Origin: Amoebidium appalachense
Lineage: Eukaryota > Protista > Ichthyosporea
NCBI GenBank assembly: GCA_963693365.1
Contig: CAVNZM010000012.1
Span: forward strand, 5,654,889 to 5,718,888
DNA length: 64,000 nt
Direction: 5' to 3'
The notes below the pieces were generated by a model. The model searched no databases. It was given only the letters and a program-made list of their open reading frames with translations, and was not told the origin of the DNA. Below are positions 1-38,445 of this stretch, one piece after another. The position numbers and the translations under genes are program-made. How positions within the stretch are numbered: the first letter of the stretch is position 1; every line of letters starts with the position of its first letter.

Positions 1-545
1 GTTGATGTGCAGCAAAAATTCCATTTTGGTAGATTTCATGGATTTGATAGGTTCTAAGTCTTTCTTCATATTTCCAGAGGCGAAAATGTGGGCCGCGCTA
101 TGTAATGAGTTTGCGCGGCCCCAGGGAGGTCAGTTGCGGCGCTACTGAGCGCGTTCAGGTCTCTTTAGGCCCAATCTTTTAGCTAAGTTTTTGCAACTCT
201 AGTCCCCGTTTTTCGCGCGGTTGTTCGTTTTTTCTCCAGTTTTTTTTGCCCAGGAGCGCGTGCGTAGCTTAGGCAGAGCATTTGGTAAGAATTTTGCGTG
301 CACGCCGTTGCGTTTTAGCTGGTGTTCGGACGTTTTTTGAGGTGTCGTTTTTCCCGCGTTTTTGTATTTTCCAGTCTTCGTTTTCAAGTTTTCGTGCTCT
401 AGTCTGGTTTTTGAGCATTGCAATGACCCCTCCTCCTGCTCTGGTCGCCAAGGGGGCCGCTCTCCTCGAAAAGCTTTTGGAGATCTCTATCGATGCGGAC
501 GACGCAAGTCTCAAAAGTCTGGCCGTTTTGCAGTGGGGTGGGTGG

Positions 546-1531
546 GCAAAAACTTAGCTAAAAAATTGGGCCTAAAGAGACCTAAACGCGCTCAGTAGCG
601 CCGCAACTGACCTCCCTGGGGTCGCGCAAGCTCATTATAGAGCGCGGCCCACATTTTTGCCTATGGAAATATGAAGAAATGACTTAGAACCTATCAAATC
701 CATGAAATCTACCAAAATTTTGCTGCACATCAACCAATGAAAAATTTTCACAAGTGGCTAAAACCCCTAGATCACAAAGACTAAATCAATTGCCGCCCAT
801 TTCGGACTAGATATAACTCAAACTCATCAATATATCCATATGGCATATCCCACAGAACATAAAAACAGCTACAGCTCCCTAAATAAAAATGCTAGCAGCC
901 TGAAACTTTGCACACACATCAAACACACCAAGGCCTACACCATGCTACTACTACGAACTTTACAGCACACCCGCAACACACAATTTCACTCCAACGGGGC
1001 TATCTAATTCTCCTGCAAAGAAAACACATTTACAAACTTAATATTCTTATGCCAACGTCGTCTTTACCAGCCCCAGCAAGGGGGTACATGAACCGGTGCC
1101 TGTGGATCAATCTCACAAGCAGGCACAGGTGTGCTCCACCACTCCCTACCTGGCACGGGAAGGAACGAACCATGCCGTGGGTGACTGACGCAGCGCTGCA
1201 GCCCGGGCAAGGAGCGACGCAGGCACGCGAATAGAAAGAACAAGAGACTGGCCGGCCTGCACATACCGGCGGAGGGAGGCATGCGATCTCCATCGACCAC
1301 GCAGAGCGATCGTCTCTACTGAAACACCCCTGACATAGTCTCTTGAGGCACCACCATGGCGAAGACTGTGAAGATGGAACCCATACTCGTTGAGGCCGAG
1401 GGAGTCACATGCCGCTTGGAACTTGGAACGCAGAACATCATACGAGAAAGGAAACAGCCGCGCAGAAGGGGGGGCGCCACGGAACCAGAAAGACAGGATG
1501 GCCAACAGGGACGGATCGGTGATGGGGACAA
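546..1531 (-). mobile_element. Family 1 3' fragment: YR C-terminus, B1 (1044-1139) and A2 (546-1043); repeated at ~10863-11849
   Basis: ORF 1146-1667 contains HLHSLRHGGA, RGRW and LRRYV; followed by the B|A junction CATAAGAA|TATTAAG. Confidence 0.9.
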
Positions 1532-3312
1532 TATTAAGTTTGTAATCGTGTTTTCTTTGCAGGAGAATTAGATAGCCCCGTTGGAGTGAAATTGTGTGTT
1601 GCGAATGTGCTGTAAACTTCGTGGTAGTATAATGCTGTAGGCCATGGTGTGTTTGATGTGTGTGCAAAGTTTCAGGCTGCTAGCATTTTTATTTAGGGAG
1701 CTGTAGCTGTTTTTATGTTCTGTGGGATATGCCATATGGATATATTGATGAGTTTGAGTTATATCTAGTCCGAAATGGGCGGCAATCGATTTGGTCTTTA
1801 TGATCTAGGGGTTTTAGCCACTTGTGGAAATTTTTCATTGGTTGATGTGCCGCAAAAATTCCATTTTGGTAGATTTCATGGATTTGATAGGTTCTAAGTC
1901 ATTTCTTCATATTTCCATAGGCAAAAATGTGGGCCGCGCTCTATAATGAGCTTGCGCGGCCCCAGGGAGGTCAGTTGCGGCGCTACTGAGCGCGTTTAGG
2001 TCTCTTTAGGCCCAATTTTTTAGCTAAGTTTTTGCAACTCTAGTCCCCGTTTCCAGCGGCGTTCTGACGGTGTAGACGTCCAAGAGCAGCTGCAGGCGCT
2101 TTCTGCCCAAGTGCAAGCCCTCTCTGTTGCCCAGTCTGGTCGCCCCAAGAAGCCCTCTGCCGGCGGCCTGCTGAGCACGCTGTCTGCGCGGGCAATGGGC
2201 AAGGAGCCTGTCTATGCGTACGACACCGGCAGTGAAGACACCCCATCGTCGAGTGAGGATTCTGATTCCAGCAGCAGTGGCTACGGTCTTTCCTCTCGCA
2301 GCCGTCGTTCCTCTGGCCGTTCCAAACCCAACCCCAGCCGTTATCTGCTCTCCAGCGGCGCCAAAGTCAACCTGCGCGTCAAAGAACGTCTGGCCCCTTC
2401 CTACCTCAAGAGCACCTTGGCTGACCAGGCCTCGGTCACTGCGGCTGTCCACACGGCGGATTGGGTCAGCTACCGCAACAAACGGGAGGCTCTGACGCCT
2501 GCCCGTATGCTGGATCTGCTGCTGGCCGCCGACCCTAAGGCCCGCAAGGAGTCACCTGCTGTGGAAGTTGGTGTGCGCCGTCTGCTGGCTGTGCAGACTG
2601 CTGATCAGTCCAACGGGGACTGGGCTGTTGCAGAGCAGTTTGAGGAGCTCCCTGCGCGCAGCCTGCCCCTGCCCCCTGCCTTGGCCACCCGGGCTGTTCG
2701 TCAAGCCAAGACCCTCGCCGAAGTCACCCGGGCTCGGCGCGGTCCCGGCAGTGGCCCATCCGGAGCCGGTCCATCGACCCCTCCGGGGACCGGTGGGCAC
2801 AGGGCCTAAACGGCCCTTTGGGGGTTCGGCACGCGGTTCGGTATATTATTTTCTTGTGGTTTCCTGCCACGTGCCCTTGATTAAATATGCCCCCTAATTT
2901 TTCTAAGGATTCCACAGCTATGCCACGTCATGTCTTTGCCGCCTCTGATTTGTTTCCTGTTCCGGCCATTCCTGTGCCGGACCGTTCTGGACAAGCCCGT
3001 CTACGGAGTCAACGCCGTCGGCAACGTCTGTCTCACCGCCTGAAGGGGGTTACCTTGGCTAACCGTTGTCTTGGTGCCCTCAACGAGCTGTGGGCAGGCG
3101 GCCCTTGCCCATTCCCGACCCGGTTGGTGACCAGTCACCACCATGCCCTGTGGACCTTTGTCCTTAGGGCCAGCTACGATGCTATACGCGCGGGTGTCTA
3201 CGACGCTCAGCCTGCGAGTAGTGTCTTGGCTGCGTTCCCCGCGGCCTACCCTGTATTGACTGGATGGCTACCTCTCACGGCGGCAAATGCCGCTTTGCCA
3301 CCCCCTGGGGTT
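1532..3312 (+). mobile_element. Family 1 5' fragment: A1 (1532-2035), 5'-deleted ORF1 and RT ORF start; repeated at ~11850-13630
   Basis: ORFs 2111-2809 and 2887 onward match ORF1 and the ORF2 N-terminus of the 24820-31109 copy. Confidence 0.9.
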
Positions 3313-4162
3313 TGGACCGGTCTTGGTGTCGGCCAGGCGGATGCCGCCTGTACCGGGTGGCATGTCGTGGGGAACGGGGTCGTCGGGCAAAATAAGATCC
3401 GCACGGGTGAGCATAAGCAGCTCACTGACACGAAAATAACACTCAAATCCAAGCAAAACAGCAATACCAAACAAGGGGCCAATTTTGGAATACAAATGAT
3501 GGCCAATGACGAGGACCAATGAAAACGGAAGCGGGGGCGTGGTCTTTGCTGGAACAAGCCGGTTCCATCCCTGCAGGCTCCGTTGGGCGGCCTGCAGGTG
3601 TGGACCCAGGCGTGGCATGAAATGCTTGATGCCGGCAGCTGTGTTGACACAGCGCTGACGCTGGCCACGCGATGGATCAATGGCATAACACTCCTCAAAA
3701 TACTCCACCAGGAGGTCGTCCAGTTCGGCGGGGGACTTGGTGTCGGTACCAGGGGGCAACCAATCCAGGAACTCAACAACAGCATCCCGGTAGGACTTGA
3801 GGGTTGGGGGCTTGGTCAGCCAGAAAACCGCGAGGGACCATCTGCAGGATTGTGGGCTGACGGCAGCCAGACACAATACAAACGAATGTTGAGGGCAAGC
3901 GTGTAGGCAGCCACCTGGCGGCATACACGGTTCAGGCGTCGGGATGCTGAACGACCCTTAGCAACAGCCCCAAGCAGCGCCGTCGAATCAAGGCCCCAAA
4001 GGTAGCGGGAGCCCCGGGCAGCCGTAGACCGACCTAATCGACGAAGCCCCAGGAGCAAGGCTTCTCCCTCCAGAATGTTGATGTGGTCGGAGTGGCGCCA
4101 ACGATGACTGATGTTGGTGGTCCACCGGCCACCAACAGCTGCCAGGATAGGTGCCGGGGGGG
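3311..4162 (-). pseudogene. RNase H C-terminus plus YR N-terminal half; repeated at ~13629-14480
   Basis: LDSTALLG...HNPADGPSR (3816-4058) and ECYFRVSEL...DTKTG (3268-3924). Confidence 0.88.
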
Positions 4163-4164
4163 TC

Positions 4165-5458
4165 CAAATTTTTTGCTAAGTTTTGCAACTCTAGTCCCCG
4201 TTTTTCGCGCTTTTGTTCGTTTTTTCTCAAGTTTTTTTTGCCCAGGAGCGCGTGCTTAGCTTCAGCAGCATCTGGTAAGAGTTTTGCGTGCGCGCCGTTG
4301 CGTTTTCGCTGGTTTTCGGACGTTTTTTGCGGTGTCGGTTTTCCCACGTTTTTGCATTTTCCAGTCTTCGTTTTCAAGATTTCGTGCTCTAGTCTGGTTT
4401 GTGAGCATTGCAATGGCCCCTCCTCCTGCTCTGGTCGCCAAGGGGGCCGCTCTCCTCGAAAAGCTTTTGGAGATCTCTATCGATGCGGACGACGCAAGTC
4501 TCAAAAGTCTGGCCGTTTTGCAGTGGGTGACTGCCGTGGGTGACTGACGCATCGCTGCAGCCCGGGCAAGGAGCGACGCAGGCACCCGAATAGAAAGAAC
4601 AAGAGACTGGCCGGCCTGCACATATCGGCGGAGGGAGGCATGCGATCTCCACCGACCACGCAGAGCAATCGTCTCGACCGAAACACCCCTGACGTAGTCT
4701 CTTGAGGCACCACCATGGCGAAGACTGTGAAGATGGAACCCATAATCGTTGAGGCCGAGGGAGTCACATGCCGCTTGGAACTTGGCACGCAGAACATCAT
4801 ACGAGAAAGGAAACCGCCGCGCAGAAGGGGGGGCACCACGGAACCAGAAAGACAGGATGGCCAACAGGGACGGATCGGTGATGGGGACAAACTGATTTGG
4901 ACCGGTCTTGGTGTCGGCCAGGCGGATGCCGCCTGTACCGGATGGCATGTTGTGGGGAACGGGGTCGTCGGGCAAAACAAGATCCGCACAGGTGAGCATA
5001 AGCAGCTCATTGACACGAAAAAAACACTTCTTATGCCAACGTCGTCTTTACCAGCCCCAGCAAGAGTTGCAAAAACATAGCTAATAAATTGGGCCTAAAG
5101 AGACCTAAACACGCTCAGTAGCGCCGCAACTGACCTCCCTGGGGAAGCGCAAGCTCATTATATAGTGCGGCCCACATTTTTGCCTATGGAAATATGAAGA
5201 AATGACTTAGAACCTATCAAATCCATGAAATCTTCCAAAATGGAATTTTGCTGCACATCAACCAATGAAAAATTTTCACAAGTGGCTAAAACCCCAAGAT
5301 CACAAAGACCAAATCGATTGCAGCCCATTCCGGACTAGATATAACTCAAACTCATCAATATATCCATATGGCATATCCCACAGAACATAAAAACAGCTAA
5401 AATAAACATGCTAGCAGCCTGAAACTTTGCACACACATCAAACACACCATGGCCTACA
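4165..5458. mobile_element. Mosaic: 5' leader/ORF1 start (+, to 4525), YR C-terminal half (-, 4526-5028), B end (-, 5029-5063), partial A (-, 5064-5458); repeated at +10318
   Basis: Direct sequence match of each piece to parts of the reference copy; ORF 4262-4999 carries the YR HSLR and RRY motifs. Confidence 0.85.
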
Positions 5459-8400
5459 ACCGCACGGGTGAGCATAAGCAGCTCACTGACACGAAAATAG
5501 CACTCAAATCCAAGCAAAACAACAATACCAAACAAGGGGCCAATTTTGGAAAACAAATGATGGCCAATGACGAGGACCAATGAAAACGGAAGCGGGGGCG
5601 TGGTCTTTGCTGGAACAAGCCGGTTCCAGGGCCTGCAGGCTCCGTTGGGCGGCCTGCAGGTGTGGACCCAGGCGTGGCATGAAATGCTTGATGCCGGCAG
5701 CTGTGTTGACACAGCGCTGACGCTGGCCACGCGATGGATCAATGGCATAACACTCCTCAAAATACTCCACCAGGAGGTCGTCCAGTTCGGCGGGGGACTT
5801 GGTGTCGGTGCCAGGGGGCAACCTATCCAGGAACTCAACAACAGCATCCCGGTAGGCCTTGAGGGTTGGGGGCTTTATAGCCTGGTCAGCCAGAAAACCG
5901 CGAGGGACCATCTGCAGGATTGTGGGCTGACGGCAGCCACACACAATACAGACGAATGTCGAGGGCAAGCGTGTAGGCAGCCACCTGGTGCCGGGGGGCG
6001 GACGGGCTTGGCTCGTGCACAGGACCAGACAGCTGGCTGTAGTGGCCACGCCGGTTGCAGTGAGGAAGCACTTCGCGGAGAAGCGTTGCTGGAAGCACCC
6101 GGGACAGCACTGCACCACCCAACAAGGAAGCATCAGTGCAGAACATGGTGCTAGCAAACCCAGAACGCAAATCACAACCCATCAAAGGGGCCAAAGCACA
6201 CATCGCCTGAAGCTCCCACACCACGGGCGGGGGAAGGGGCTGTTCCCGACCCCCCAGCTGCTCCACAAAACTGTAGACGGCACTCAGAACCGACAAAAGC
6301 GGCCGCTGCAGCAGTGCCGCCCACACCCAACCACCAAGCAACTGCTGCAAACGGAGCTGCGTGACGACACCACGACTCAACACGGCCTGGGTTTCCGCCA
6401 CCAGACGGCACAAGGAAGCGCCACACGGTCGTAATATCCCAGAGCGATGCATTTCCAGGCCTAGCAGCACCATAGAGGATGACGAACCAGCAGCCACATC
6501 TTGACATTGGAGGGAAGACCAGCCGGGCCGGTGACGCCATGATACGATTCACGCTGACGATGGATGGCGGTGGCATCTGTGCCGACCCAGCCACAGTCGT
6601 CCACATACAGGGCATGCTGCGTGGCCTCCACAGGCCGCAGCACTATCGCACAGAGGCGCTCAATGCGGGGCATGCCGGCTCGGTCAGCCAACTGCCCATG
6701 GACGTCTTGAGCCACAAGCACAGAATGCACCCAGCCCGTGGGCACGGTCTTGAGGGCCGGGTACACAAGCCGGTCGGGCCCAGAAATGCCAACAGCCTCC
6801 GAAGACACAGGCGGCAATCCGAAGTACCGCCACAGCCACTCCGGGGCAAGAAGACGATGGAACTGGTTGTCGATGTCCGACTTGCCAAAATAGAGGCAAT
6901 CCTCAGGCCCCAGCAACAGATCGGCAAAATCGGCAGGTTTGGGCAGGTGCACCTTGAGGGCAGGATGATCACGGGCAAAGAACAGGTTGCCACGGCAGCC
7001 GTCAAAAATGACGCGGGCTCTGGTGTCTTTGGGGACCCCAAACAGCCCATTCTTATGCCAACGTCGTCTTTGCCAGCCCCAGCAAGGGGATACATGAGCC
7101 GGTGCCTGTGGATCAATCTCACAAGCAGGCACAGGTGTGCTCCACAGGAGCAATGAAAAGAATGACAAATGTCATACAGAAACATGCTCAAAAAACGTAG
7201 CCTAGTGCCTAAATAGGCAAAGGGTGTGGTGGGTGGGCAAAAACTTAGCTACAAAATTGGGCCTAAAGAGACCTAAACGCGCTCAGTAGCGCCGCAACTG
7301 ACCTCCCTGGGGCCGCGCAAGCTCATTATAGAGCGCGGCCCACATTTTTGCTTATGGAAATATGAAGAAATGACTTAGAACCTATCAAATCCATGAAATC
7401 TACCAAAATGGAATTTTTGCTGCACATCAACCAATGAAAAATTTTCACAAGTGGCTAAAACCCCTAGATCATAAAGACCAAATCGATTGCCGCCCATTTC
7501 GGACTAGATATAACTCAAACTCATCAATATATCCATGTGGCATATCCCACAGAACATAAAAACAGCTACAGCTCCCTAAATAAAAATGCTAGCAGCCTGA
7601 AACTTTGCACACACATCACACACACCAAGACCTACAACATGTTACTACTACGAATTTTACAGCACACTCGCAACACACAATTTCACTCCAACGGGGCTAT
7701 CTAATTCTCCTGCAAAGAAAACACGTTTACAAACTTAATATTGATGGCCAGTGGTTTTTCCTTCGCCTCGAAATAGTGCACCATGCCGCAGTCTTGAAGC
7801 CGAAGAAGCAGGGGACCGTATTCCCCACTGGGAACGTGATGCGCCGGTCGGAAGCGGCGCAGCTCTGCAGGTGTCGGCGGAACAGGCTTGAGAAGGCCGC
7901 CGTCGCAGTTGGCCAAAAACGGCTCAGCGTAGGAGACAAAAACTGCAACACGTCCACTGTGGCTCCAACCCCAGGGGGTGGCAAAGCGGCATTTGCCGCC
8001 GTGAGAGGTAGCCATCCTGTCAATACAGGGTAGGCCGCGGGGAACGCAGCCAAGACACTACTCGCAGGCTGAGCGTCGTAGATTCCCGCGCGTATAGCAT
8101 CGTAGCTGGCCCTAAGGACAAAGGTCCACAGGGCATGGTGGTGACTGTTCACCAACCGGGTCGGGAATGGGCAAGGGCCGCCTGCCCACAGCTCGTTGAG
8201 GGCACCAAGACAACGGTTAGCCAAGGTAACCCCCTTCAGGCGGTGAGACAGACGTTGCCGACGGCGTTGACTCCGTAGACGGGCTTGTCCAGAACGGTCC
8301 GGCACAGGAATGGCCGGAACAGGAAACAAATCAGAGGCGGCAAAGACATGACGTGGCATAGCTGTGGAATCCTTAGAAAAATTAGGGGGCATATTTAATC

Positions 8401-9365
8401 AAGGGCACGTGGCAGGAAACCACAAGAAAATAATATACAGAACCGCGTGCCGAACCCCCAAAGGGCTGTTTAGGCCCTGTGCCCACCGGTCCCCGGAGGG
8501 GTCGATGGACTGGCTCCGGATGGGCCACTGCCGGGACCGCGCCGAGCTCAGCAGTCTGCACAGCCAGCAGACGGCGCACACCAACTTCCACAGCAGGTGA
8601 CTCCTTGCGGGCCTTAGGGTCGGCGGCCAGCAGCAGATCCAGCGTACGGGCAAGCGTCAGAGCCTCCCGTTTGTTGCGGTAGCTGACCCAATCCGCCGTG
8701 TGGACAGCCGCAGTGAACGAGGCCTGGTCAGCCAAGGTGCTCTTGAGGTAGGAAGGGGCCAGACGTTCTTTGACGCGCAGGTTGACTTTGGCGCCGCTGG
8801 AGAGCAGATAACGGCTGGGGTTGGGTTTGGAACGGCCAGAAAAACGACGGCTGCGAGAGGAACGACCGTAGCCACTGCTGCTGGAATCAGAATCCTCACT
8901 CGACGATGGGGTGTCTTCACTGCCGGTGTCGTACGCATAGACAGGCTCCTTGCCCTTTGCCCGCGCAGACAGCGTGCTCAGCAGGCCGCCGGCAGAGGGC
9001 TTCTTGGAGCGACCAGACTGGGCAACAGAGAGGGCTTGCACTTGGGCAGAAAGCGCCTGCAGCTTCTCTTGGACGTCTACACCGTCAGAATGCCGCTGGG
9101 GAGAGGGCGACCCAGGTGGGGGGGAGGCACGGCCGCTGCGAATAGTGCGACAGAGCAAGTGCAGCTGGTCGGCGACTTTCCAACCGACCATCTCAGGGTC
9201 ATCAAAAGCCACCGAGCGCGCCTTCAGGGCTGAAACCACACTGTTGACGGTTTCTGCCGGCAGGCTGTTCCAGGGGAGGGCATTGGACTGCAAAACGACC
9301 AGACTTTTGAGACTTGCGTCGTCCGCATCGGTAGAGATCTCCAAAAGCTTTTCAAGGAGAGCGGC
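5459..9365 (-). mobile_element. Large decayed family 1 copy (ORF1, RT/RNaseH, YR N-terminus) interrupted by a solo A-B unit; repeated at ~15777-19683
   Basis: ORFs 8382-9344 (ORF1), 7727-8392, 6461-7168 (YVDD), 5886-6497 (CTDAS) and 5504-6175 are collinear with the reference copy. Confidence 0.9.
7050..7740 (-). mobile_element. Solo A-spacer-B unit (691 bp) inserted in the RT ORF
   Basis: Flanks rejoin to the uninterrupted RT sequence GCCATCAA|TGGGCTG seen at ~27331-27346. Confidence 0.92.
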
Positions 9366-10013
9366 GTGGTCTTTGCTGGAACAAGCCGGTTCCAGCCCTG
9401 CAGGCTTCGTTGGGCGGCCTGCAGGTGTGGACCCAGGCGTGGCATGAAATGCTTGATGCCGGCAGCTGTGTTGACACAGCGCTGACGCTGGCCAGGCGAT
9501 GGATCAATGGCATAACACTCCTCAAAATACTCCACCAGTAGGTCGTCCAGTTCGGCGGGGGACTTGGTGTCGGTGCCAGGGGGCAACCAATCAGGAACTC
9601 AACAACAGCATCCAGGTAGGCCTTGAGGGTTGGGGGCTTTATAGCCTGGTCAGCCAGAAAACCGCCAGGGACCATCTGCAGGATTGTGGGCTGACGGCAG
9701 CCACACACAATACCTGCCTACACTATGCTAATCAGCACAGGGACTGGACGCACACAGCAGTCAAAAGGCTCTACATCCCCGAATATTCGCTACCAATATC
9801 ACCTGCATATCTCGCACACGGAGTCCTGTTACTCTGTCTCCGGTGCTGTCCAATGTTCTTGCAAAGAAAAAACGTTTACAAACTAATCATTATATTCGAA
9901 ACAAAATGTGTTCTTATGCCAACGTCGTCTTTACCAGCCCCAGCAAGGGGATACATGAGCCGGTGCCTGTGGGTCAATCTCACAAGCAGGCACCGGTGTG
10001 CTCCACAGGAGCA
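9361..10013 (-). mobile_element. YR N-terminus/RNaseH end (9361-9710), deleted family 2 A' repeat (9711-9889), 21-bp unique spacer, family 1 B2 (9911-10013); repeated at ~19684-20290
   Basis: Pieces match 28680-29710, 41110-41438 and 31014-31109 respectively. Confidence 0.8.
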
Positions 10014-10317
10014 ATTAAAAGAATATTTAATTTGCAGGAGAATTATATATAACCCCGTTGGAGTGAGATTGTGTGTTGCGAGTGTGCTGTAACATTCATA
10101 GTAGTTGCATGTTGTAGGCCTTGGTATGTTTGATGCGTGTGCAAAGTCTCAGGCTGCTAGCATTTTTATTGAGGGAGCTGTAGCTGTTTTTATGTTCTGT
10201 TGGATATGCCATATGGATATAATGATGTGTTTGAGTTATATCTAGTCCGAAATGGGCGGCAATTGATTTGGTCTTTGTGATCTAGGGGTTTTAGCCACTT
10301 GTGAAAAATTTTCATTG

Positions 10318-22832: not shown

Positions 22833-22909
22833 GATGCTCTTGAGGTAGGAAGGGGCCAGATGTTCAAAGAACGTCTGGGCCAGATGTTCAAAGAACGTCT
22901 GGCCCCTTC

Positions 22910-23210: not shown

Positions 23211-23216
23211 TTGCCG

Positions 23217-24819: not shown

Positions 24820-25322
24820 TATTTAGTTTGTAAACGTGTTTTCTTTGCAGAAGAATTAGATAGCCCCGTTGGAGTGCAATTGTGTGTTGCTAGTGTGCTG
24901 TAAAATTCGTAGTAGTAGCATGTTGTAGGCCTTGGTGTGTTTGGTGTGTGTGCAGAGTTTCAGGCTGCAAGCATTTTAATTTAGGGAGCTGTAGCTGTTT
25001 TTATGAACTGTGGGATATGCCATATGGATATATTGATGAGTTTGAGTTATATCTAGTCTGAAATGGGCGGTAATTGATTTGGTCTTTGTGATCTAGGGGT
25101 TTTAGCCACTTGTGAAAAATTTTCATTGGTTGATGTGCAGCAAAAATTCCATTTTGGTAGATTTCATGGATTTGATAGGTTTTAAGTCATTTCTTCATAT
25201 TTCCATAGGCAAAAATGTGGGCCGCGCTATATAATGAGCTTGCGCGGCCCCAGGGAGGTCAGTTGCGGCGCTACTGAGCGCGTTTAGGTCTCTTTAGGCC
25301 CAATTTTTTAGCTAAGTTTTGC
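24820..25322 (+). repeat. A1 split direct repeat (~503 bp)
   Basis: Direct repeat of 30415-30923. Confidence 0.92.
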
Positions 25323-25548
25323 AACTCTAGTCCCCGTTTTTCGCGCTGTTGTTCGTTTTTTCTCTAGTTTGTTTTGCACAGGAGCGCGCGCTTAGATTAG
25401 GCAGCATCTCATAAGAGTTTTGCGTGCGCGCGGCTGCGTTTTAGCTGGTTTTCGGACGTTTTTTGCGGTGTCGGTTTTCCCGCGTTTTTGCATTTTCCAG
25501 TCTTCGTTTTCAAGTTTTCGTGCTCTAGTCTGGTTTGTGAGCATTGCA

Positions 25549-26604
25549 ATGGCCCCTCCTCCTACTCTGGTCGCCAAGGGGGCCGCTCTCCTCGAAAAGC
25601 TTTTGGAGATCTCTACCAATGCGGACGCCGCAAGTCTCAAAAGATTCGCCGTTTTGCAGTCCAACGCCCTCCCCTGGAACAGCCTGCCGGCAGAAACCGT
25701 CAACAGTGTGGTTTCAGCCATCAAGGCGCGCTCGGTGGCTTTCGATGACCCTGAGATGGTCGGTTGGAAAGTCACCGACCAGCTGCACTTGCTCTGTCGC
25801 ACTCCTCGCAGCGGCCGTGCCTCCCCCCCACCTGGGTCGCCCTCTCCCCAGCGGCGTTCTGACGGTGTAGACGTCCAAGAGCAGCTGCAGGCGCTTTCTG
25901 CCCAAGTGCAAGCCCTCTCTGTTGCCCAGTCTGGTCGCCCCAAGAAGCCCTCTGCCGGCGGCCTGCTGAGCACGCTGTCTGCGCGGCCAAAGGGCAAGGA
26001 GCCTGTCCATGTGTCTGACACCGGCAGTGAAGACACCCCATTGTCGAGTGAGGATTCTGATTCCAGCAGCAGTGGCTACGGTCGTTCCTCTCGCAGCCGT
26101 CGTTCCTCTGGCCGTTCCAAACCCAACCCCAGCCGTTACCTGCTCTTCAGCGGCGCCAAAGTCAACCTGGGCGTCAAAGAACGTCTGGCCCCTTCTTCCC
26201 TCAAGAGCACCTTGGCTGACCAGGCCTCGGTCACTGCGGTTGTCCACGCGGCGGATTGGGTCAGCTACCGCAACAAACGGGAGGCTCTGACGCTTGCCCG
26301 TATGCTGGATCTGCTGCTGGCCGCCGACCCTAAGGCCCGCAAGGAGTCACCTGCTGTGGAAGTTGGTGTGCGCCGTCTGCTGGCTGTGCAGACTGCTGAT
26401 AAGTCCAACGGGGACTGGGCTGTTGCAGAGCAGTTTGAAGAGCTCCCTGCGCGCAGCCTGCCCCTGCCCCCTGCCTTGGCCACCCGGGCTGTTCGTCAAG
26501 CCAAGACCCTCGCCGAAGTCACCCGGGCTCGGCGCGGTCCCGGCAGCGCCCCATCCGGGGCCGGTCCATCGACCCCTCCGGGGACCGGTGGGCACAGGGC
26601 CTAA
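25549..26604 (+). CDS. ORF1, gag-position protein (351 aa), open
   Basis: ATG at 25549 within ORF 25420-26604; lies before the RT ORF; has a coiled-coil-like stretch and a Ser-rich linker; no CCHC knuckle seen. Confidence 0.8.
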   Translation: MAPPPTLVAKGAALLEKLLEISTNADAASLKRFAVLQSNALPWNSLPAETVNSVVSAIKARSVAFDDPEMVGWKVTDQLHLLCRTPRSGRASPPPGSPSPQRRSDGVDVQEQLQALSAQVQALSVAQSGRPKKPSAGGLLSTLSARPKGKEPVHVSDTGSEDTPLSSEDSDSSSSGYGRSSRSRRSSGRSKPNPSRYLLFSGAKVNLGVKERLAPSSLKSTLADQASVTAVVHAADWVSYRNKREALTLARMLDLLLAADPKARKESPAVEVGVRRLLAVQTADKSNGDWAVAEQFEELPARSLPLPPALATRAVRQAKTLAEVTRARRGPGSAPSGAGPSTPPGTGGHRA

Positions 26605-26681
26605 ACGGCCCTTTGGGGGTTCGGCACGCGGTTCTGTATATTATTTTCTTGTGGTTTCCTGCCACGTGCCCTTGATTAAAT

Positions 26682-28740
26682 ATGCCCCCTAATTTTTCTA
26701 AGGATTCCACAGCTATGTCACGTCATGTCTTTGCCGCCTCTGATTTGTTTCCTGCTCCGGCCATTCCTGTGCCGGACCGTTCTGGACAAGCCCGTCTACG
26801 GAGTCAACGCCGTCGGCAACGTCTGTCTCACCGCCTGAAGGGGGTTACCTTGGCTAACCGTTGTCTTGGTGCCCTCGACGAGCTGTGGGCAGGCGGCCCT
26901 TGCCCATTCCCGACCCGGTTGGTGAACAGTCACCACCATGCCCTGTGGACCTTTGTCCTTAGGGCCAGCTACGATGCTATACGCGGCGCGGGTGTCTACG
27001 ACGCTCAGCCTGCGAGTAGTGTCTTGGCTGCATTCCCTGCGGCCTACCCTGTATTGACAGGATGGCTACCTCTCACGGCGGCAAATGCCGCTTTGCCACC
27101 CCCTGGGGTTGGAGCCACAGTGGACGTGTTGCAGTTTTTGTCTCCTACGCTGCCAGCCGTTTTTGGCCAACTGCGACGGCGGCCTTCTCAAGCCTGTTCC
27201 GCCGACGCCTGCAGAGCTGCGCCGCATCCGACCGGCGCATCACGTTCCCAGTGGGGAATACGGTCCCCTGCTTCTTCGGCTTCAAGACTGCGGCATGGTG
27301 CACTATTTCGAGGCGAAGGAAAAACCACTGGCCATCAATGGGCTGTTTGGGGTCCCCAAAGACACCAGAGCCCGCGTCATTTTTGACGGCCGCCGTGGCA
27401 ACCTGTTCTTTGCCCGTGATCATCCTGCCCTCAAGGTGCACCTGCCCAACCCTGCCGATTTTGCCGATCTGTTTCTGGGGCCTGAGGATTGCCTCTATTT
27501 TGGCAAATCGGACATGGACAAGCAGTTCCATCGTCTTCTTGCCCCGGAGTGGCTGCGGCGGTACTTCGGATTGCCGCCTGTGTCTTCGGAGGCTGTTGGC
27601 ATTTCTGGGCCCGACCGGCTTGTGTACCCGGCCCTCAAGACCGTGCCCATGGGCTGGGTGCATTCTGTGCTTGTGGCTCAAGACGTCCATGGGCAGTTGG
27701 CTGACCGAGCCGGCATGCCCCGCATTGAGCGCCTCTGTGCGATAGTGCCGCGGCCTGTGGAGGCCACGCAGCATGCCCTGTATGTGGACGACTGTGGCTG
27801 GGTTGGCACAGATGCCACCGCCATCAATCGTCAGCGTGAATCGTATCATGGCGTCACCGGCCCGGCTGGTCTTCCCTTCAATGTCAAGAAGGAGGTGGCT
27901 GCTGGTTCGTCATCCTCTATGGTGCTGCTAGGCCTGGAAATGCATCGCTCTGGGATATTGCGCCCGTCTGGCGCTTCCGTGTGCTGTCTGGTGGCGGAAA
28001 CCCAGGCCGTGTTGCGTCGTGGTGTCGTCACACAGCTCCGTTTGCAGCAGTTGCTTGGTGGTTGGGTGTGGGCGGCACTGCTGCAGCGTCCGCTTTTGTC
28101 GGTTCTGAGTGCCGTCTACAGTTTTGTGGAGCAGCTGGGGGGTCGGGAACAGCCCCTTCCCCCGCCCGTTGTGTGGGAGCTTCAGGCGATGTGTGCTTTG
28201 GCCCCTTTGATGCGTTGTGATTTGCGTTCTGGGTTTGCTAGCACCATGTTCTGCACTGATGCTTCCGTGTTGGGTGGTGCAGTGGTGTCCCGGGTGCTTC
28301 CAGCAACGCTTCTCCGTGAAGTACTGCCTCACTCCAACCGGCGTGGCCACTACAGCCAGCTGTCTGGTCCTGTGCACCAGCCAAGCCCGTCCGCCCCCCC
28401 GGCACCTATCCTGGCAGCTGTTGGTGGCCGGTGGACCACCAACATCAGTCATCGTTGGCGCCACTCCGACCACATCAACATTCTGGAGGGAGAAGCCTTG
28501 CTCCTGGGGCTTCGTCGATTAGGTCGGTCTACGGCTGCCCGGGGCTCCCGCTACCTTTGGGGCCTTGATTCGACGGCGCTGCTTGGGGCTGTTGCTAAGG
28601 GTCGTTCAGCATCCCGACACCTTAACCGTGCATGCCGCCAGGTGGCTGCCTACACACTTGCCCTCGACATTCGTTTGTATTGTGTGTGGCTGCCGTCAGC
28701 CCACAATCCTGCAGATGGTCCCTCGCGGTTTTCTGGCTGA
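26682..28740 (+). pseudogene. Reverse transcriptase / RNase H (DIRS-type) with one +1 frameshift near 27153
   Basis: LFGVPK, RVIFD, KSDMDKQF, VPMGW, YVDD, CTDAS, HINILEGEA, LDS, HNPADGPSR. Confidence 0.93.
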
Positions 28741-30320
28741 AAAGGCCATTCTTATGCCAACGTCGTCTTTACCAGCCCCAGCAAGGGGATACATGAGCCG
28801 GTGCCTGTGGATCAATCTCACAAGCAGGCACAGGTGTGCTCCACAGGAGCAATGAAAAGAATGACAAATGTCATACAGAAACATGCTCAAAAAACGTAGC
28901 CTAGTGCCTAAATAGGCAAAGGGTGTGGTGGGTGGGCAAAAACTTAGCTAAAAAATTGGGCCTAAAGAGACCTAAACGCGCTCAGTAGCGCCGCAACTGA
29001 CCTCCCTGGGGCCGCGCAAGCTCATTTTAGAGCGCGGCCCACATTTTTGCCTATGGAAATATGAAGAAATGACTTAGAACCTATCAAATCCATGAAATCT
29101 ACCAAAATGGAATTTTTGCTGCACATCAACCAATGAAAAATTTTCACAAGTGGCTAAAACCCCTAGATCATAAAGACCAAATCGATTGCCGCCCATTTCG
29201 GACTAGATATAACTCAAACTCATCAATATATCCATATGGCATATCCCACAGAACATAAAAACAGCTACAGCTCCCTAAATAGAAATGCTAGCAGCCTGAA
29301 ACTTTGCACACACATCAAACACACCATGGCCTACAGCATTATACTACCACGAAGTTTACAGCACACTCGCAACACACAATGTCACTCCAACGGGGCTATC
29401 TAATTCTCCTGCAAAGAAAACACGTTTACAAACTTAATATAAAGCCCCCAACCCTCAAGGCCTACCGGGATGCTGTTGTTGAGTTCCTGGATTGGTTGCC
29501 CCCTGGCACCGTCACCAAGTCCCCCGCCGAACTGGACGACCTCCTGGTAAAGTATTTTGAGGAGTGTTATGCCATTGATCCATCGCGTGGCCAGCGTCAG
29601 CGCTGTGTCAACACAGCTGCCGGCATCAAGCATTTCATGCCATGCCTGGGTCCACGCCTGCAGGCCACCCAACGGAGCCTGCAGGGCTGGGACCGGCTTG
29701 TTCCAGCAAAGACCACACCCCCGCCTCCGTTTTCATTGGTCCTCGTCATTGGATATCATTTGTATTCCAAAATTGGCCCCTTGTTTGGTATTGCTGTTTT
29801 GCTTGGATTTGAGTGCTATTTTCGTGTCAGTGAGCTACTTATGCTCATCCGTGCGGATCTTCTTTTGTCCAACGACCCCGTTCCCCACGACATGCTACCC
29901 AGTACAGGCGGCATCCGCCCGGTCCAAATCAGTTTGTCCCCACCACCGATCCGTCACTGTTGCCCATCCTGTCTTTCTGGATCCGTGGTGCCCTTCTGCG
30001 CGGCTGTTTCCTTTTTCGTATGATGTTCTGCGTGCCAAGTTCCAAGCGGCATGTGACTCCTCGGCCTCAACGAGTATGGGTTCCATCTTCACAGTCTTCG
30101 CCATGGTGGTGCCTCGAGAGACTACGTCAGGGGTGTTGCGGCAGAGACGATTGCTCTGCGTGGTCGGTGGAGATCGCATGCCACCCTCCGCCGGTATGTG
30201 CAGGCCGGCCAGTCTCTTGTTCTTTCTATTCGGGTGCCTGCGTCGCTCCTTGCCTGGGCTGCAGCGCTGCGTCAGTCACCACGGCATGGTTCGTTCCTTC
30301 CCGTGCCAGAGAGGGAGTGG
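28715..30320 (+). pseudogene. Tyrosine recombinase, split by a solo A-B insertion and frameshifted
   Basis: MVPRGFLA..IKPPTLKAY, ECYFRVSEL, HSLRHGGA, RGRW, RRYV; the start overlaps the RT stop. Confidence 0.9.
28749..29439 (-). mobile_element. Solo A-spacer-B unit (691 bp) inserted inverted at the YR 5' end
   Basis: Flanks GGCCA|TAAAGCCC match the uninterrupted GGCTA|TAAAGCCC (reverse strand ~5869-5883). Confidence 0.92.
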
Positions 30321-31109
30321 TTGAGCACACCTGTGCCTGCTTGTGAGATTGATCCACAGGCACCGGCTCATGTATCCCCTTGCTGGGGCTGGTAAAGACG
30401 ACGTTGGCATAGAATATATAGTTTGTAAACGTGTTTTCTTTGCAGGAGAATTAGATAGCCCCGTTGGAGTGAAATTGTGTGTTGCGAGTGTGCTATAAAC
30501 TTCGTAGTAGTAATATGTTGTAGTAGGCCTTGGTGTGTTTGATGAGTGTGCAAAGTTTCAGGCTGCTAGCATTTTTATTTAGGGAGCTGTAGTTGTTTTT
30601 ATGTTCTGTGGGATATGCCATATGGATATATTGATGAGTGAGAGTTATATCTAGTCCGAAATGGGCGGCAATTGATTTGGTCTTTGTGATCTAGGGGTTT
30701 TAGCCACTTGTGAAAATTTTTCATTGGTTGTAATGTGCAGCAAAAATTCCATTTTGGTAGATTTCATGGATTTGATAGGTCCTAAGTCATTTCTTCATAT
30801 TCCATAAGCAAAAATGTGGGCCGCGCTATATAATGAGCTTGCGCGGCCCCAGGGAGGTCAGTTGCGGCGCTACTGAGCGCCTTTAGGTCTCTTTAGGCCC
30901 AATTGCTTAGCTAAGTTTTTTGCCCACCCACCACACCCTTGCCTATTTAGGCACTAGGCAACGTTTTTGCAGCATGTTTCTGGATGACATTTGTCATTCT
31001 TTTCATTGCTCCTGTGGAGCACACCTGTGCCTGCTTGTGAGATTGATCCACAGGCACCGGCTCATGTTTCCCCTTGCTGGGGCTGGTAAAGACGATGTTG
31101 GCATAAGAA
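30320..31109 (+). repeat. B1 (30320-30414), A2 (30415-30923), spacer and B2 (31014-31109)
   Basis: B1 and B2 are ~96-bp direct repeats; A2 matches A1. Confidence 0.92.
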
Positions 31110-31689
31110 AGAAATTTTTGTAGACTCTAGCTTAAACCCCTCAATCCCGAAACTTCTAAGCATTGAAGAGGTGCAATATATATATAAATTGAATTCACAG
31201 ATGGTTCGGCGACATTCTATTTCATCTATTGCTTATAATATTACGTTTATAATTTACATGTATTGCCAATGGATAGCTTATATGCTTTTTTGCAACCAAT
31301 GCTCGGAAAATTGTGCTGCAATCATTCTTCGGCGTCCTGGCTTATGCGCAGGTGACAGTGTGCTCTTGGGTGAACATTGCAGGCTCGATTAATTGGCTGA
31401 GCCATCTGGCACCTATGATCGCGTGACCGCAGCCACACGATTGGTGAGTTAAAATCACCCTGAGCCATGACTTATGTCTCCTGTCATAAAGAAAAAAACA
31501 CGTGTTTTTACTATCGGAGGTGACCTAAAATAACATGACGACGCCATGAAAATGAATTCGAAACTAAAAAATAATTATTTCAGTCACTGACAAAAATTTC
31601 AGAGTGTTATTTACAGCGGTTGCTGAAATATTAGAGAAAAACTGTGGTGACTCTGGGTCGTGGATACATATTAGACACCCTCACTGACT

Positions 31690-32057
31690 GGCAATGTTTC
31701 AATTTATGCCCTTCCGGCCTTCGGTTGTGCCATACCACCGTCACTTGTTTTTTCCATCCTTGGTGCCTCTTTTGTTTTGCGCCAGCCAAGTCTGTGGCAT
31801 AAACCTGCCGCCACCACGCCGTTCCTTTTCTTTTCGCGGTGCCTTGGTTTGGTGGCGCTGTTTCGTCCTCCTTATGTGGGTTGCTCGCCTACCCACCCCT
31901 TATCGTTCTCATCTTGTCTTGACTCTGGCCCCCCGCGGGCCACCGGCCCTCAAGCTTAGGTAGGCCTGGTTGGGGTAGTACACACGGGTTTTTCTTTCTG
32001 TTTGCGGTGCTTCCGCCAATGCCTTTCGTTGTCGTTGGTTATGGCCCCGGAAGTTCG
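31690..32057 (+). mobile_element. Family 2 5' leader fragment
   Basis: Similar to the reverse complement of ~40600-40980. Confidence 0.65.
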
Positions 32058-32974
32058 TTCTTGTGCCAACGTCGCCTTTACAAGCCCAAGCACGGAGATA
32101 CTTGAGGTGGTGCCTGCTGACCCTATGATCTCAGGCACATGTGTGCTCCACAGGAGCAATTCAAAGCCTTATGAGGCAAGCCTAATAAGGCAAGTGTTCA
32201 ATGCCTAATGAGGCAAGGGTTCAAAGCCTAATAGGCAAGGGTGGGTGGGTGGGGAAAAACTTGACTACAGGCAGTAACCTAAAAAGGCCTACACTCCGTG
32301 ACTTACACCGAAACAAGCAACCTAAGGAGGGCTACCTACACTATGCTAATGAGCATTGCGACTGAGACGCACACAGCAGCCAAAAGGCTCTAAACCAAAG
32401 CATCGGCATGCAAAAATTATTGCGGGCGGGATCGCCTCATGACTATAATTCAATCAAAACGTCTACATATGCAGGAACACATTCCTCTACATACTTTCAC
32501 CAATAAAAAGCTGAACTGCAAATCGTATACCAGCATACGTACATCACCGAATTTTCGCTACCACTATCACCTGCATACCTCGCACACGGAGTCCTGGTAC
32601 TCTGTCTCCGGTGCTGTCCAATGCTCCTGCAAAGAAAAAACGTTATCAAACTAATCAATCGTTCTTGTGCCAACGTCGCCTTTACCAGCCCCAGCTAGGG
32701 GATACCTGAGGTGGTGCGTGCTGCCCTATGATCTCAGGCACCATGTGGGCTCCACTCTTGCCTTGCTGGCATGCCGGGGAAAACGGGCGACGCGACATAG
32801 CACATGGGTGCAGGGAGCAAGACCCAACGAAAACAAAAAGAAATAAAATATACCCAAAATTCGAAGCTATAGACACGCACACGACGTGTGTGTGTGTGTG
32901 TGTGTACACACGTGTGTGTGTGTGTATGTGTGTGCGTGTGTGTAGGTGTGTTTGTGTATGATGTGTGGGTGGTT

Positions 32975-33013
<39 letters not shown>

Positions 33014-33287
33014 ATTAATAGGTGCAAAATTAAGACTCCCACAAGAATACAAAAAAAATACAACTCAAAATACGCGGGACGGACCATCGGCAGGTTTGCT
33101 GGCCGAAGGAAGCCAGAGCCAATAGAGACGGATGTCAAGGGCCAGCGAATGAGCAGCCACTTGGCGGCAGACACGATTCAGGCGATGGGAGGCCGAACGG
33201 CCCTTGGCCCTGTACAGCACCCAGGAGTGCAGTGAATCCAGACCCAACACGTAGCGGCGGCTGCGGGCTCAGCAGGAACGACCCAAG
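32058..33287 (-). mobile_element. Family 2 3' end: RNaseH end, (CA)n, B'1, A'2, B'2
   Basis: ORF 33065-33250 ends ...PADGPSRVF; GT tract 32886-33010; B' repeats at ~32058 and ~32662. Confidence 0.85.
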
Positions 33288-35262
33288 TGTGTCTTCGAAG
33301 GTTGTTGGCCTTTCTGGGCCCGACCGGCTTGTGTACCCGGCCCTCAAGACCGTGCCTATGGGCTGGGTGCGTTCTGTGCTTGTGGCTCAAGACGTCCATG
33401 GGCAGTTGGCTGACCGAGCCGGCATGCCTCGCATTGAGCGCCTCTGTGCAATAGTGCCGCGGCCTGTGGAGGCCACGCAGCATGCCCTTTATGTGGACGA
33501 CTGTGGCTGGGTCGGCACAGATGCCACCGCCACCAATCGTCAGCGTGAATCATATCATGGCGTCACCGGCCCGGCTGGTCTTCCCTCCAACGTCAAGAAG
33601 GATGTGGCTGCTGGTTCGTCGTCCTCTATGGTGCTGCTAGGCTTTGAAATGGATCACTCTGGGATTTTGCGCCCGTCTGGTGCTTCCTTGTGCCGTCTGG
33701 TGGCGGAAACCCAGGCCGTGTTGCGTCGTGGTGTCGTCACGCAGCTCCGTTTGCAGCAGTTGCTTGGTGGTTGGTTGTGGGCGGCACTGCTGCAGCGGCC
33801 GCTTTTGTCGGTTCTGAGTGCCGTCTACAGTTTTGTGGAGCAGCTGGGGGGTCAGGAACAGCCCCTTCCACCGCCCGTGGTGTGGGAGCGTCAGGCGATG
33901 TGTGCTTTGGCCCCGTTGATGCGTTGTGATTTGCGTTCTGGGTTTGCTAGCACCATGTTCTGCACTGATGCTTCCTTAAGGGTTGGGTGGTGCAGTGGTG
34001 TCCCGGGTGCTGCCAGCAGTGCTTCTCCGCCAAGTGCTGCCTCACTGCAACCGGCATGGCCACTACAGCCAGCTGTCTGGTCCCGTGCCCGAGCCAAGCC
34101 CGTCCGCCCCCCTGGCACCTATCCATCATTTGTCTCTCAATATTGGCCCCTTGTTTGGTATTGCTGTTTTGCTCGGATTTGAGTGTTATTTTCGTGTCAG
34201 TGAGCTGCTTATGCTCACCCGTGCGGATCTTGTTTTGCCCAACGACCCCGTTCCCCACGACATGCCACCCGGTACAGGCGGCATCCGCCTGGCCGACACC
34301 CGGTCCAAATCAGTTTGTCCCCATCACCGATCCGTCCCTGTTGGCCATCCTGTCTTTCTGGTTCCGTGGTTCCCCCCCTTCTGCGCGGCTGTTTCCTTTC
34401 TCGTACGATGTTCTGCGTGCCAAGTTCCAAGCGGCATGTGACTCCCTCGGCCTCAACGAGTATGGGTTCGATCTTCACAGTCTTCGCCATGGTGGTGCCT
34501 CAAGAGACTACGTTAGGGGTGTTTCGGTGGAGACGATTGCTCTGCGTGGTCGGTGGAGATCGCATGCCTCCCTCCGCCGGTATGTGCAGGCCGGCCAGCC
34601 TCTTGCTCTTTCTATTCGGATGCCTGCATCGCTCCTTGCCCGGGCTGCAGGGCTGCGTCAGTCACCCACGGCATGGTTCGTTCCTTCCCGTGCCAGGTAA
34701 GGAGTGGTGGAGCACACCTGTGCCTCCTTGTGAGATTGATCCACAGGCACCGGCTAATGTACCCCCTTGCTGGGGCTGGTAAAGACGATGTTGGCATAAG
34801 AATATTTAGTTTGTAAACGTGTTTTCTTTGCAGGAGAATTAGATAGCTCCCCCCGTTGGAGTGAAATTGTGTGTTGCGAGTGTGCTATAAAATTCGTAGT
34901 AGTAGTATATTGTGGGCCTAGGTGTGTTTGGTGTGTGTGCAAAGTTTCAGGCTGCTAGGATGTTTATTTAGGGAGCTGTAGCTGTTTTTATGTTCTGTGG
35001 GATATGCCATATGGATATATTGATGAGTGTGAGTTATATCTAGTCCGAAATGGGCGGCAATTGATTTGGTCTTTGTGATCTAGGGGTTTTAGTCAGTTGT
35101 GAAAAATTTTCATTGTTGATGTGCAGCAAAAATTCCATTTTGGTAGATTTCATGATTTGATAGGTTCTAAGTCATTTCTTCATATTTCCATAGGCAAAAA
35201 TGTGGGCCGCGCTATATAATGAGCTTGCGCGGCCCCAGGGAGGTCAGTTGCGGCGCTACTGA
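33288..35262 (+). mobile_element. Family 1 fragment: RT core, deletion into YR, B1 (34706-34802), A2 (34803-35262)
   Basis: ORF 33232-34182 has YVDD and CTDAS; ORF 33987-34700 has HSLRHGG; B|A junction at 34802/34803. Confidence 0.9.
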
Positions 35263-37524: not shown

Positions 37525-37802
<278 letters not shown>

Positions 37803-38295: not shown

Positions 38296-38333
<38 letters not shown>

Positions 38334-38390
38334 GTGTGTTTGTGCATGGTGTGTGTGTGTGTGTGTGTAGGTGTAGGTGTAGGTGTGTGT

Positions 38391-38445
<55 letters not shown>

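What the first reader, a model, noticed from the sequence alone, without database searches (positions are those of the whole stretch)
1..35262. Self-targeting YR-retrotransposon nest: ~35 kb built mostly from one element inserted into and rearranged with itself
Seen: apart from a pogo fragment (~23.2-24.0 kb), ~0.6 kb of unique DNA (31110-31690) and family 2 pieces, everything maps to one ~5.6-kb element. About 18 whole or partial A repeats occur in both orientations, and almost every intact element end sits inside another copy of the family. Established: Dictyostelium DIRS-1 inserts into itself and its clusters form the centromeres. Inference: this is an analogous self-assembling locus from an Ngaro-type family, a candidate centromere or heterochromatin/small-RNA domain.
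Basis: partly seen in the sequence, partly recalled or inferred. Interest (0 to 1): 0.85.

Follow-up and report, generated by a model that had tools for sequence, protein, structure and literature searches.

The report
Self-nested Ngaro retrotransposon cluster
About 35 kb of this eukaryote's DNA is a pile of one jumping gene (an Ngaro-type retrotransposon) inserted again and again into its own copies and partly duplicated in tandem; it likely lands here because of the local chromatin rather than by DNA matching, and a role as a centromere is possible but untested.

Summary
The nest is real: 90-91% of 1-35,262 tiles onto one 5.6-kb Ngaro-type element (split direct repeats, RT/RNase H, tyrosine recombinase, no methyltransferase ORF). 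There are 18 A-repeat pieces, and 10 of 12 independent free element ends lie in family DNA. Two corrections apply. First, 10.3 kb is a recent 99.5% tandem duplication, leaving 7 independent self-insertions, three of them solo A-B units. Second, targeting is not by sequence: sites are scattered over the element, in both orientations, and share about one 'A' with the circle junction. Run contigs suggest roughly 70-100 internal junction copies genome-wide (4 here), show further self-junctions outside the window, and also show AT-rich non-family flanks. Random insertion predicts 0.2-0.4 self-insertions. Family 2 is a co-nesting partner that encodes only RT/RNase H and shares family 1's termini. 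Best reading: recombinase integration likely steered to a chromatin domain, then remodelled by recombination. A centromere (DIRS-1/Zepp-like) is not excluded but has no direct support (about 20%). No genome was held, so a one-cluster-per-chromosome test could not be run.

The parts
24819..31110 (+). Most complete family-1 Ngaro-type element (A1-ORF1-RT/RH-YR-B1-A2-spacer-B2), interrupted by a solo unit; 5.6 kb without it
   Evidence: A1 vs A2 94.6%, so an older copy or a chimera
24819..25322 (+). A1 repeat; its start is inserted in the 5' leader (ref 25,456) of another copy
25549..26604 (+). ORF1, 351 aa, Gag-like by position only; conserved helical C-terminal domain (about residues 200-340)
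   Evidence: 127 homologues at E<=1e-3; no Pfam family at cut-off and no clear fold match
27058..28740 (+). RT/RNase H, open 560-aa frame (PMGW, YVDD, TDAS, NPADGPSR); stops directly after RNase H
   Evidence: profile hits retroviral RT weakly, best E 0.006
29441..30324 (+). Tyrosine recombinase, frameshifted in this copy (R, HSLRH, GRW, Y motifs read in the copy at 4,532-5,028)
   Evidence: PF00589 E 5.8e-5 and 0.007 in two other copies
30325..31110 (+). B1 (30,325-30,413), A2 (30,414-30,924), spacer, B2 (31,018-31,110); B1|A2 is the circle-junction copy
28749..29440 (-). Solo A-spacer-B unit in the RH-YR linker, opposite orientation
   Evidence: empty site present in copies at ~3,815, ~5,880, ~9,645
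22139..22832 (+). Solo A-spacer-B unit in a reversed ORF1 (ref 26,212)
   Evidence: 98.4% to the 28,749 solo
7050..7742 (-). Solo A-spacer-B unit in RT (ref 27,338); duplicated at 17,368-18,060
1531..2052 (+). A1 start inserted in a reversed YR (ref 29,934); duplicated at 11,849
5028..5460 (-). Deleted unit (part of A1 joined to the last 36 bp of B) whose B end lies in YR (ref 29,812); duplicated at 15,346
   Evidence: junction seen in run X1 at depth 89
22909..22963 (+). B end inserted in YR (ref 29,569)
533..21128 (.). Tandem duplication of a 10.3-kb mosaic unit (533-10,850 and 10,851-21,128); likely unequal crossing-over between two A1-leader-ORF1 stretches; the window starts inside the repeat, so more units may lie upstream
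   Evidence: 99.5%; 8 differences inside the unit, 5 at its end; unit junctions at depth 89-226 vs 37-54 for single pieces in X1
33288..35263 (+). Older, internally deleted family-1 fragment (RT, YR, B1, A2)
   Evidence: 92-94% to the reference copy
36734..41437 (-). Family 2: split direct repeats around RT/RH only, no YR and no ORF1; shares the last ~60 bp of B and first ~46 bp of A with family 1
31673..33287 (-). Second family-2 copy (RH end, CA tract, B1, A2, B2) with its B2 end in another family-2 leader
9714..9890 (-). Family-2 A piece 20 bp from a family-1 B2 end; duplicated at 19,991-20,167
   Evidence: junction depth 226 in X1
23211..24069 (-). Single non-YR insert, pogo-like DNA transposon fragment (label recalled)
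   Evidence: HTH-like frame, weak Pfam HTH hits, single copy in the window
31111..31672 (.). AT-rich (39% GC) non-repeated island flanking the B2 end
   Evidence: covered at single-copy depth in X1 and X4

Best explanation
This is a nest of one Ngaro-type retrotransposon whose copies sit inside each other with precise ends; each likely arrived as a circular cDNA that the element's tyrosine recombinase joined to the target at about one shared A, the site likely being chosen by the chromatin or a tether in this region rather than by DNA sequence. Shown: precise A starts and B ends at seven scattered sites in older copies, in both orientations; solo A-B units; deletions and inversions; a 10.3-kb tandem repeat; and a co-nesting family lacking YR and ORF1. 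Inferred: circle integration; solos arising by A1 x A2 recombination (or recombinase excision); the tandem arising by unequal crossing-over; family 2 borrowing family 1's recombinase and ORF1 through shared termini; and regional tethering, perhaps through ORF1. Whether the preferred domain is a centromere is open.
For: Three double-ended solos each leave one A on both sides of a site that has one A when empty. 9 of 12 examined junctions have a clear A core and 3 are ambiguous (0.22^9 = 1e-6). No further likeness to the circle junction (p=0.27, 10 sites). Orientation is 4 same and 3 opposite. All 4 B|A junctions in the window are ordinary YR-B1|A2 junctions, and B|A depth in X1 (3,878) matches body depth (2,900-3,900), so the cognate site is not a favoured target. 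7 self-insertions in the window and 6 more end-junctions in the rows shown for runs X1, X4 and X6, against 0.2-0.4 expected. The neighbouring 17 kb of other repeats (35.3-52 kb) holds no family-1 end (p 0.01-0.03). Family 2 nests here too, and a B end in X10 runs into family-2 RH. Best-partner identity falls from 93-99% (10.8-31 kb) to 78-95% (31-41 kb). Precedent for non-sequence targeting: DIRS-1 (PMC2665215 passages) and Cafeteria Ngaro, where ORF1 loss goes with lost preference (PMC8547959 passages).
Against: No tether was identified: ORF1 has no recognised chromatin-reading domain. One nest cannot separate targeting from survival bias. Many ends have non-family flanks: 10 contigs at the B end in X1, with 82 further loose-end rows hidden, and 5 in X6 and 2 in X10 among the rows shown. 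Junction detection in run contigs is incomplete (several window junctions are not among the rows shown), so no self:non-self ratio can be given. The extra self-junctions could all belong to this nest upstream of base 1. Copy numbers come from contig depths, which the tool says are not copy numbers.
Confidence: 0.62

Rival explanations
1. The nest is, or is the edge of, a transposon-type centromere: the element targets CENH3 chromatin and builds one cluster per chromosome, as DIRS-1 and Zepp-like elements do. This is a special case of the best explanation.
For: Young nested insertions of one family are the predicted signature of transposon centromeres (10.64898/2026.09.17.752431 passages). The nest is 90% one family, with younger copies toward the open left end. 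A family total of roughly 0.4-0.6 Mb could make 10-20 such nests. DIRS-1 centromeres are only 49% DIRS, so non-family flanks do not exclude this.
Against: No CENH3, Hi-C or chromosome data. A CPT1-like host gene lies 18 kb from the nest edge. Only 35 kb is visible, against 51-320 kb for Chlamydomonas ZeppL clusters and 81-187 kb of DIRS alone per functional Dictyostelium centromere. Four of 10 displayed X1 B-end flanks are long, probably unique DNA. Dictyostelium centromeres showed no repeated integration patterns from unequal crossing-over, whereas this nest does.
Confidence: 0.2
2. Passive refuge: the element inserts nearly at random, insertions elsewhere are purged, and a gene-free, silenced tract keeps them.
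For: Non-family flanks exist. The tract is gene-free and borders other transposons. C-T differences at CpG are 2.7-fold enriched between copies (119 of 1,527 vs 180 of 5,869), as expected under methylation.
Against: A refuge should collect all active families and the adjacent repeats should receive family-1 ends. Instead there is 1 non-YR insert against 7 self-insertions, and none in the next 17 kb. The host gene region is more CpG-depleted (0.51-0.53) than the element (0.73), so methylation is not nest-specific.
Confidence: 0.2
3. Homology-guided self-targeting: cDNA or recombinase recognises existing copies by sequence.
For: 10 of 12 independent free ends lie in family DNA. A review attributes DIRS-1 accumulation to such recombination (PMC5633606 passages).
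Against: Sites are non-homologous and scattered (leader, ORF1, RT, linker, YR, A), with no likeness to the junction beyond one A. No B2|A head-to-tail junction occurs in the window. Family 2, unlike family 1 outside its termini and RT, co-nests.
Confidence: 0.07
4. Assembly artefact from collapsed or chimeric repeats.
For: A 99.5% tandem repeat in a long-read-type assembly; no listed run contig spans it.
Against: Seven of the 8 differences inside the unit are substitutions or a 41-bp indel, not homopolymer slips. Five unit junctions stand in X1 contigs at 1.7-6 times single depth. The B2|unique junction is bridged in X4 and X6.
Confidence: 0.03

Closest known systems
Ngaro YR retrotransposons (e.g. 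Cafeteria burkhardae Ngaro1-4, PMC8547959; Xenopus DIRS-53_XT, PMC9210276)
   Same: A1-ORFs-B1-A2-B2 layout, ORF1-RT/RH-YR order, no methyltransferase ORF, solo AB units, non-random insertion.
   Different: Cafeteria types prefer endogenous virophages; nesting in their own copies is not mentioned in the passages read. No hydrolase ORF here. A partner family lacking both YR and ORF1 co-nests.
Dictyostelium DIRS-1 centromeric clusters (PMC2665215, PMC5633606, PMC7192593)
   Same: A YR retrotransposon found inside its own copies with no defined target sequence; fragmented nested copies.
   Different: DIRS-1 has inverted repeats, an ICR and a methyltransferase, is confined to one region per chromosome and co-localises with CenH3. 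None of that is shown here. The shared core here is about 1 bp, not a trinucleotide, and this nest shows unequal-crossover duplication.
Zepp/ZeppL LINE clusters and other transposon-cluster centromeres (PMC9940879; 10.64898/2026.09.17.752431)
   Same: One family dominating a nested cluster of young copies.
   Different: Different element class; larger clusters; one per chromosome, which could not be tested here.
Non-autonomous YR elements such as TOC1 (named in PMC9940879)
   Same: Family 2 lacks the recombinase and would need it in trans.
   Different: Family 2 keeps an RT/RNase H frame (72% aa to family 1 over 183 aa) while lacking ORF1 and YR.

Membership tests
Ngaro | Split direct repeats A1-ORFs-B1-A2-B2 | tested here: met
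   definition from PMC9210276 passages
Ngaro | RT/RNase H ORF | tested here: met
   motifs conserved in alignment A1; profile's best PDB hits are all retroviral RTs, though weak (E 0.006); Pfam RVT_1 did not hit
Ngaro | Tyrosine recombinase ORF after RT/RH | tested here: met
   PF00589 E 5.8e-5, below the curated cut-off; R, HxxRH, W and Y motifs; homologue P0007 carries RT/RH and PF00589 in one frame
Ngaro | No methyltransferase domain (separates it from PAT-like elements) | tested here: met
   the RT/RH frame stops right after RNase H and the YR frame follows at once in uninterrupted copies
Ngaro | Gag-like ORF1 | tested here: inconclusive
   351-aa ORF in the expected place with 127 unnamed homologues; no named family or fold
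Ngaro | RT groups with the Ngaro clade in a tree | not testable with these tools
   no named Ngaro RT sequences were returned
DIRS-1-like | Inverted terminal repeats with an internal complementary region | tested here: not met
   terminal repeats are direct; the inverted A at 28,936-29,440 is an inserted solo
Transposon-cluster centromere | Young nested insertions of one family | tested here: met
Transposon-cluster centromere | One cluster per chromosome, family confined to clusters | tested here: inconclusive
   no genome; run contigs show both self and non-family flanks, listings truncated
Transposon-cluster centromere | CENH3 occupancy or Hi-C centromere signal | not testable with these tools
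   no chromatin data available

The most novel reading that the evidence does not exclude
An Ngaro retrotransposon, with an RT-only helper-dependent partner, targets centromeric chromatin and builds this organism's centromeres. Solo formation and unequal crossing-over are turning the nest into a 10-kb higher-order tandem repeat: a second, independent origin of tyrosine-recombinase centromeres, caught at the step from transposon cluster to satellite.
Probability: 0.2. Interest if true: 0.82.

Novelty: new variant of a known kind. Interest (0 to 1): 0.5.

Why it matters
Why DIRS-1 lands in its own copies without a target sequence is described as unresolved (PMC2665215). This locus shows the same behaviour in a different YR superfamily and argues against sequence recognition: about a 1-bp core, scattered sites, and a co-nesting partner family. 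That points to a protein or chromatin tether that can be tested with ORF1 swaps and junction mapping. If the nests prove to be centromeres, it is a new centromere-building element in a lineage type where centromeres are often cryptic. If not, it is a well-resolved example of Ngaro nesting, solo formation and a YR-less partner.

Tried and rejected
Whole-genome mapping: no genome held. Metagenome scan for the B-end motif: 0 matches. Expression: no RNA holder listed, no verdict; X10 covers the element but not the unique flank, and its library type is only guessed, so nothing is drawn from it. ESM Atlas: five tries, none answered. ORF1 fold: model pLDDT 70.8, pTM 0.45; Foldseek gave no hit at E<=1e-3 and the best VIA Z was 6.2 among generic helical matches; Pfam found no chromodomain or PHD in 43 of 127 homologues scanned. 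None of this excludes a tether. Host lineage: a 78-aa CPT1-like exon gave 47-67% hits across animals, oomycetes and protist transcriptomes, so the host is unresolved. A guess at unicellular holozoans was not confirmed; none of the 20 listed papers holds the word Ngaro. Insertion into the B|A junction as the self-targeting route: rejected. Recombination from chromosomal B1|A2 junctions as the source of free ends: no free B end clearly preceded by YR in the window. Earlier scan notes: none. VIPER/TATE paper: none of six terms found. Literature searches for an Ngaro self-nest, an Ngaro centromere or a YR-less RT-only partner showed none in the listings or passages read. The founding Goodwin and Poulter papers were not read and may describe targets or such derivatives. 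No supplements were read. Frames at 35.5, 41.5, 44.1 and 46.4 kb were not scanned against Pfam, so the LINE-like labels there are recalled.
Full report
Observation. Self-comparison and tiling show that 32,014 of the 35,262 bases map to the element at 24,819-31,110; by class 90% is family 1, 5.6% family 2, 2.4% one pogo-like insert and 1.6% unique DNA. There are 18 family-1 A pieces in both orientations. The description is therefore right. It misses that 1-10,851 recurs at 10,318-21,128 with 99.5% identity. Inside the unit the copies differ at 8 places, only one a homopolymer slip; 5 more substitutions at the end mark the switch into a different copy. Both borders lie in A1-leader-ORF1 stretches, as unequal crossing-over would give (inference). 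In run X1, five junctions carried by the unit have contig depth 89, 117, 158, 200 and 226, against 37-54 for five pieces taken as single-copy. The duplication is likely real and may have more units upstream of base 1. Contig depth is only a rough guide.

The element. Order: A1 (504 bp), leader, ORF1 (351 aa), an open 560-aa RT/RNase H frame, a tyrosine recombinase (PF00589 E 5.8e-5 in another copy; catalytic motifs), B1, A2, spacer, B2. RT/RH relatives are 29-32% identical and unnamed; the motifs align and the profile's best solved matches are retroviral RTs. There is no room for a methyltransferase ORF. Split direct repeats without MT define Ngaro (PMC9210276 and PMC7192593, passages). A tree against named Ngaro RTs could not be made. 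ORF1 is Gag-like by position only.

Insertions. Of 17 free family-1 termini, 12 are independent; 10 lie in family-1 DNA and define 7 sites: leader 25,456, ORF1 26,212, RT 27,338, RH-YR linker 28,749, and YR 29,569, 29,812 and 29,934. Three are ~700-bp A-spacer-B solos with both ends intact. Solo AB units are known from Cafeteria Ngaros and ascribed there to repeat recombination (PMC8547959, passages). At all three solos the empty site has one A and the filled site has it on both sides, matching the single A at the B1|A2 junction. Six of 7 window sites and 3 of 5 run junctions examined show this clearly; 3 are ambiguous. Beyond that A, ten targets match the junction at 27 of 100 flank positions (24 expected, p=0.27; this set included two of the ambiguous sites). 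Orientation is 4 same, 3 opposite. The B|A junction itself is not a favoured target: all 4 in the window are internal, and its depth in X1 equals body depth. This fits the circle-integration model for YR elements (PMC7192593, passages) with a shorter core than the trinucleotides described there. The other tile joints are deletions and inversions, many with overlaps of 1-3 bases.

Genome-wide view, from run contigs only. No genome was held. Twenty of 22 listed runs hold part of the element; four were laid. In X1 the B|A junction depth implies about 72-105 copies and the spacer 125-181, so solos are common; X4 gives about 42 and 100. The window holds 4 such junctions. A family of 0.4-0.6 Mb in about 160 Mb would give 0.2-0.4 self-insertions by chance. 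Among the rows shown for a 1.67-kb part of the element, six end-junctions into family DNA are not in the window: 30,286|A, B|30,692 and 30,713|A in X1; B|30,745 in X4; 29,981|A in X4 and X6; and 29,834|30,411 in X6 (5 + 5 rows hidden). Against confinement: X1 shows 10 contigs whose B end runs into AT-rich non-family-1 DNA (6 with short, 4 with long flanks; 82 loose-end rows hidden; some may be family-2 ends), and X6 and X10 show 7 more. Of six loose-end strings looked up in the window (five from these termini), one matched family-2 RH and five matched nothing. Detection is incomplete, so no ratio is given, and the extra junctions may belong to this same nest upstream.

Family 2. At 36,734-41,437 and 31,673-33,287 lie copies of a second split-repeat element, 83-89% alike. 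RT/RH is 68% identical in DNA to family 1, but after RNase H comes a CA tract and then B1, and tblastn finds neither YR nor ORF1. It shares only the last ~60 bp of B and the first ~46 bp of A with family 1. It likely depends on family 1 in trans. It nests in itself and beside family 1, which favours regional over homology targeting. I found no such element in searches.

Mechanism. Shown: precise-ended nested copies, solos, a tandem duplication, clustering far above chance (P about 1e-12 under random placement), no family-1 ends in the next 17 kb of other repeats, and an age gradient toward the left. Inferred: circle integration at a minimal core, site choice by chromatin or a tether (ORF1 is the candidate, by analogy with Cafeteria), and later recombination. 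C-T differences at CpG are 2.7-fold enriched, suggesting methylation, but the host gene region is even more CpG-poor, so this does not mark the nest as heterochromatin.

Centromere question. DIRS-1 makes up 49% of Dictyostelium centromeres, is confined to them and has no defined target (PMC2665215, PMC5633606, passages). ZeppL clusters span 51-320 kb, one per chromosome (PMC9940879, passages). A centromere atlas predicts young nested single-family clusters for transposon centromeres and holds neither 'DIRS' nor 'Ngaro' in its main text (10.64898/2026.09.17.752431, passages). Zebra finch Ngaro annotations form small clusters on 56 of 80 chromosomes with no centromere link in the passages read (10.1101/2025.10.17.683159). 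The nest fits the signature but nothing here tests function, and a CPT1-like gene lies at 53.7-58.2 kb. I put a centromere at about 0.2.

Verdict. Observation confirmed; interpretation partly supported. A new Ngaro-type family showing DIRS-1-like nesting, with a YR-less partner: a new variant of a known kind, interest 0.5, rising to about 0.8 if CENH3 sits here. The host is unresolved, likely a unicellular eukaryote.

Noticed in passing
window 36734-41437 (-) and 31673-33287 (-): Family 2 has split direct repeats and RT/RNase H but no recombinase or ORF1, and shares only the terminal junction with family 1: a likely non-autonomous partner.
   Followed up: partly
window 37302-38675: A ~680-bp tandem duplication (85.5%) of the RH end, CA tract and B1 inside family 2.
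   Followed up: no
run X1, joint 28772>28937: A deleted 3' end (A joined to the last ~24 bp of B) at depth 470, about 9-13 times single depth and not in the window: an amplified deletion derivative.
   Followed up: no
window 9883-9911; run X4 joint 30411>30415: A B end and an A start separated by only 20-30 bp of AT-rich filler, seen twice: possibly two insertions into the same tiny island.
   Followed up: partly
window 534 and 4524: The same ORF1 breakpoint (ref 25,660) occurs twice at 93% identity: an older internal duplication in the nest.
   Followed up: partly
run X10: A 3.5-kb contig carries letters in YR that the window copy lacks at its frameshifts, so an intact family member likely exists elsewhere.
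   Followed up: no
window 43400-46370: Ty3/gypsy-like fragment (label recalled) with an RT domain, PF00078 E 3.9e-33.
   Followed up: no
window 41939-43276: Tandem pair of ~660-bp units at 91%; neighbouring 35.3-36.0 kb and 41.5-41.9 kb look LINE-like (recalled, not scanned).
   Followed up: no
window 53700-58220 (+): Intron-rich carnitine O-palmitoyltransferase 1-like host gene (PF00755), the first clear gene right of the repeat tract; a short upstream exon may start near 52,526.
   Followed up: partly
window 62244-62369 and 63748-63844: Minisatellites of 39 bp (3.3 copies) and 46 bp (2.1 copies).
   Followed up: no
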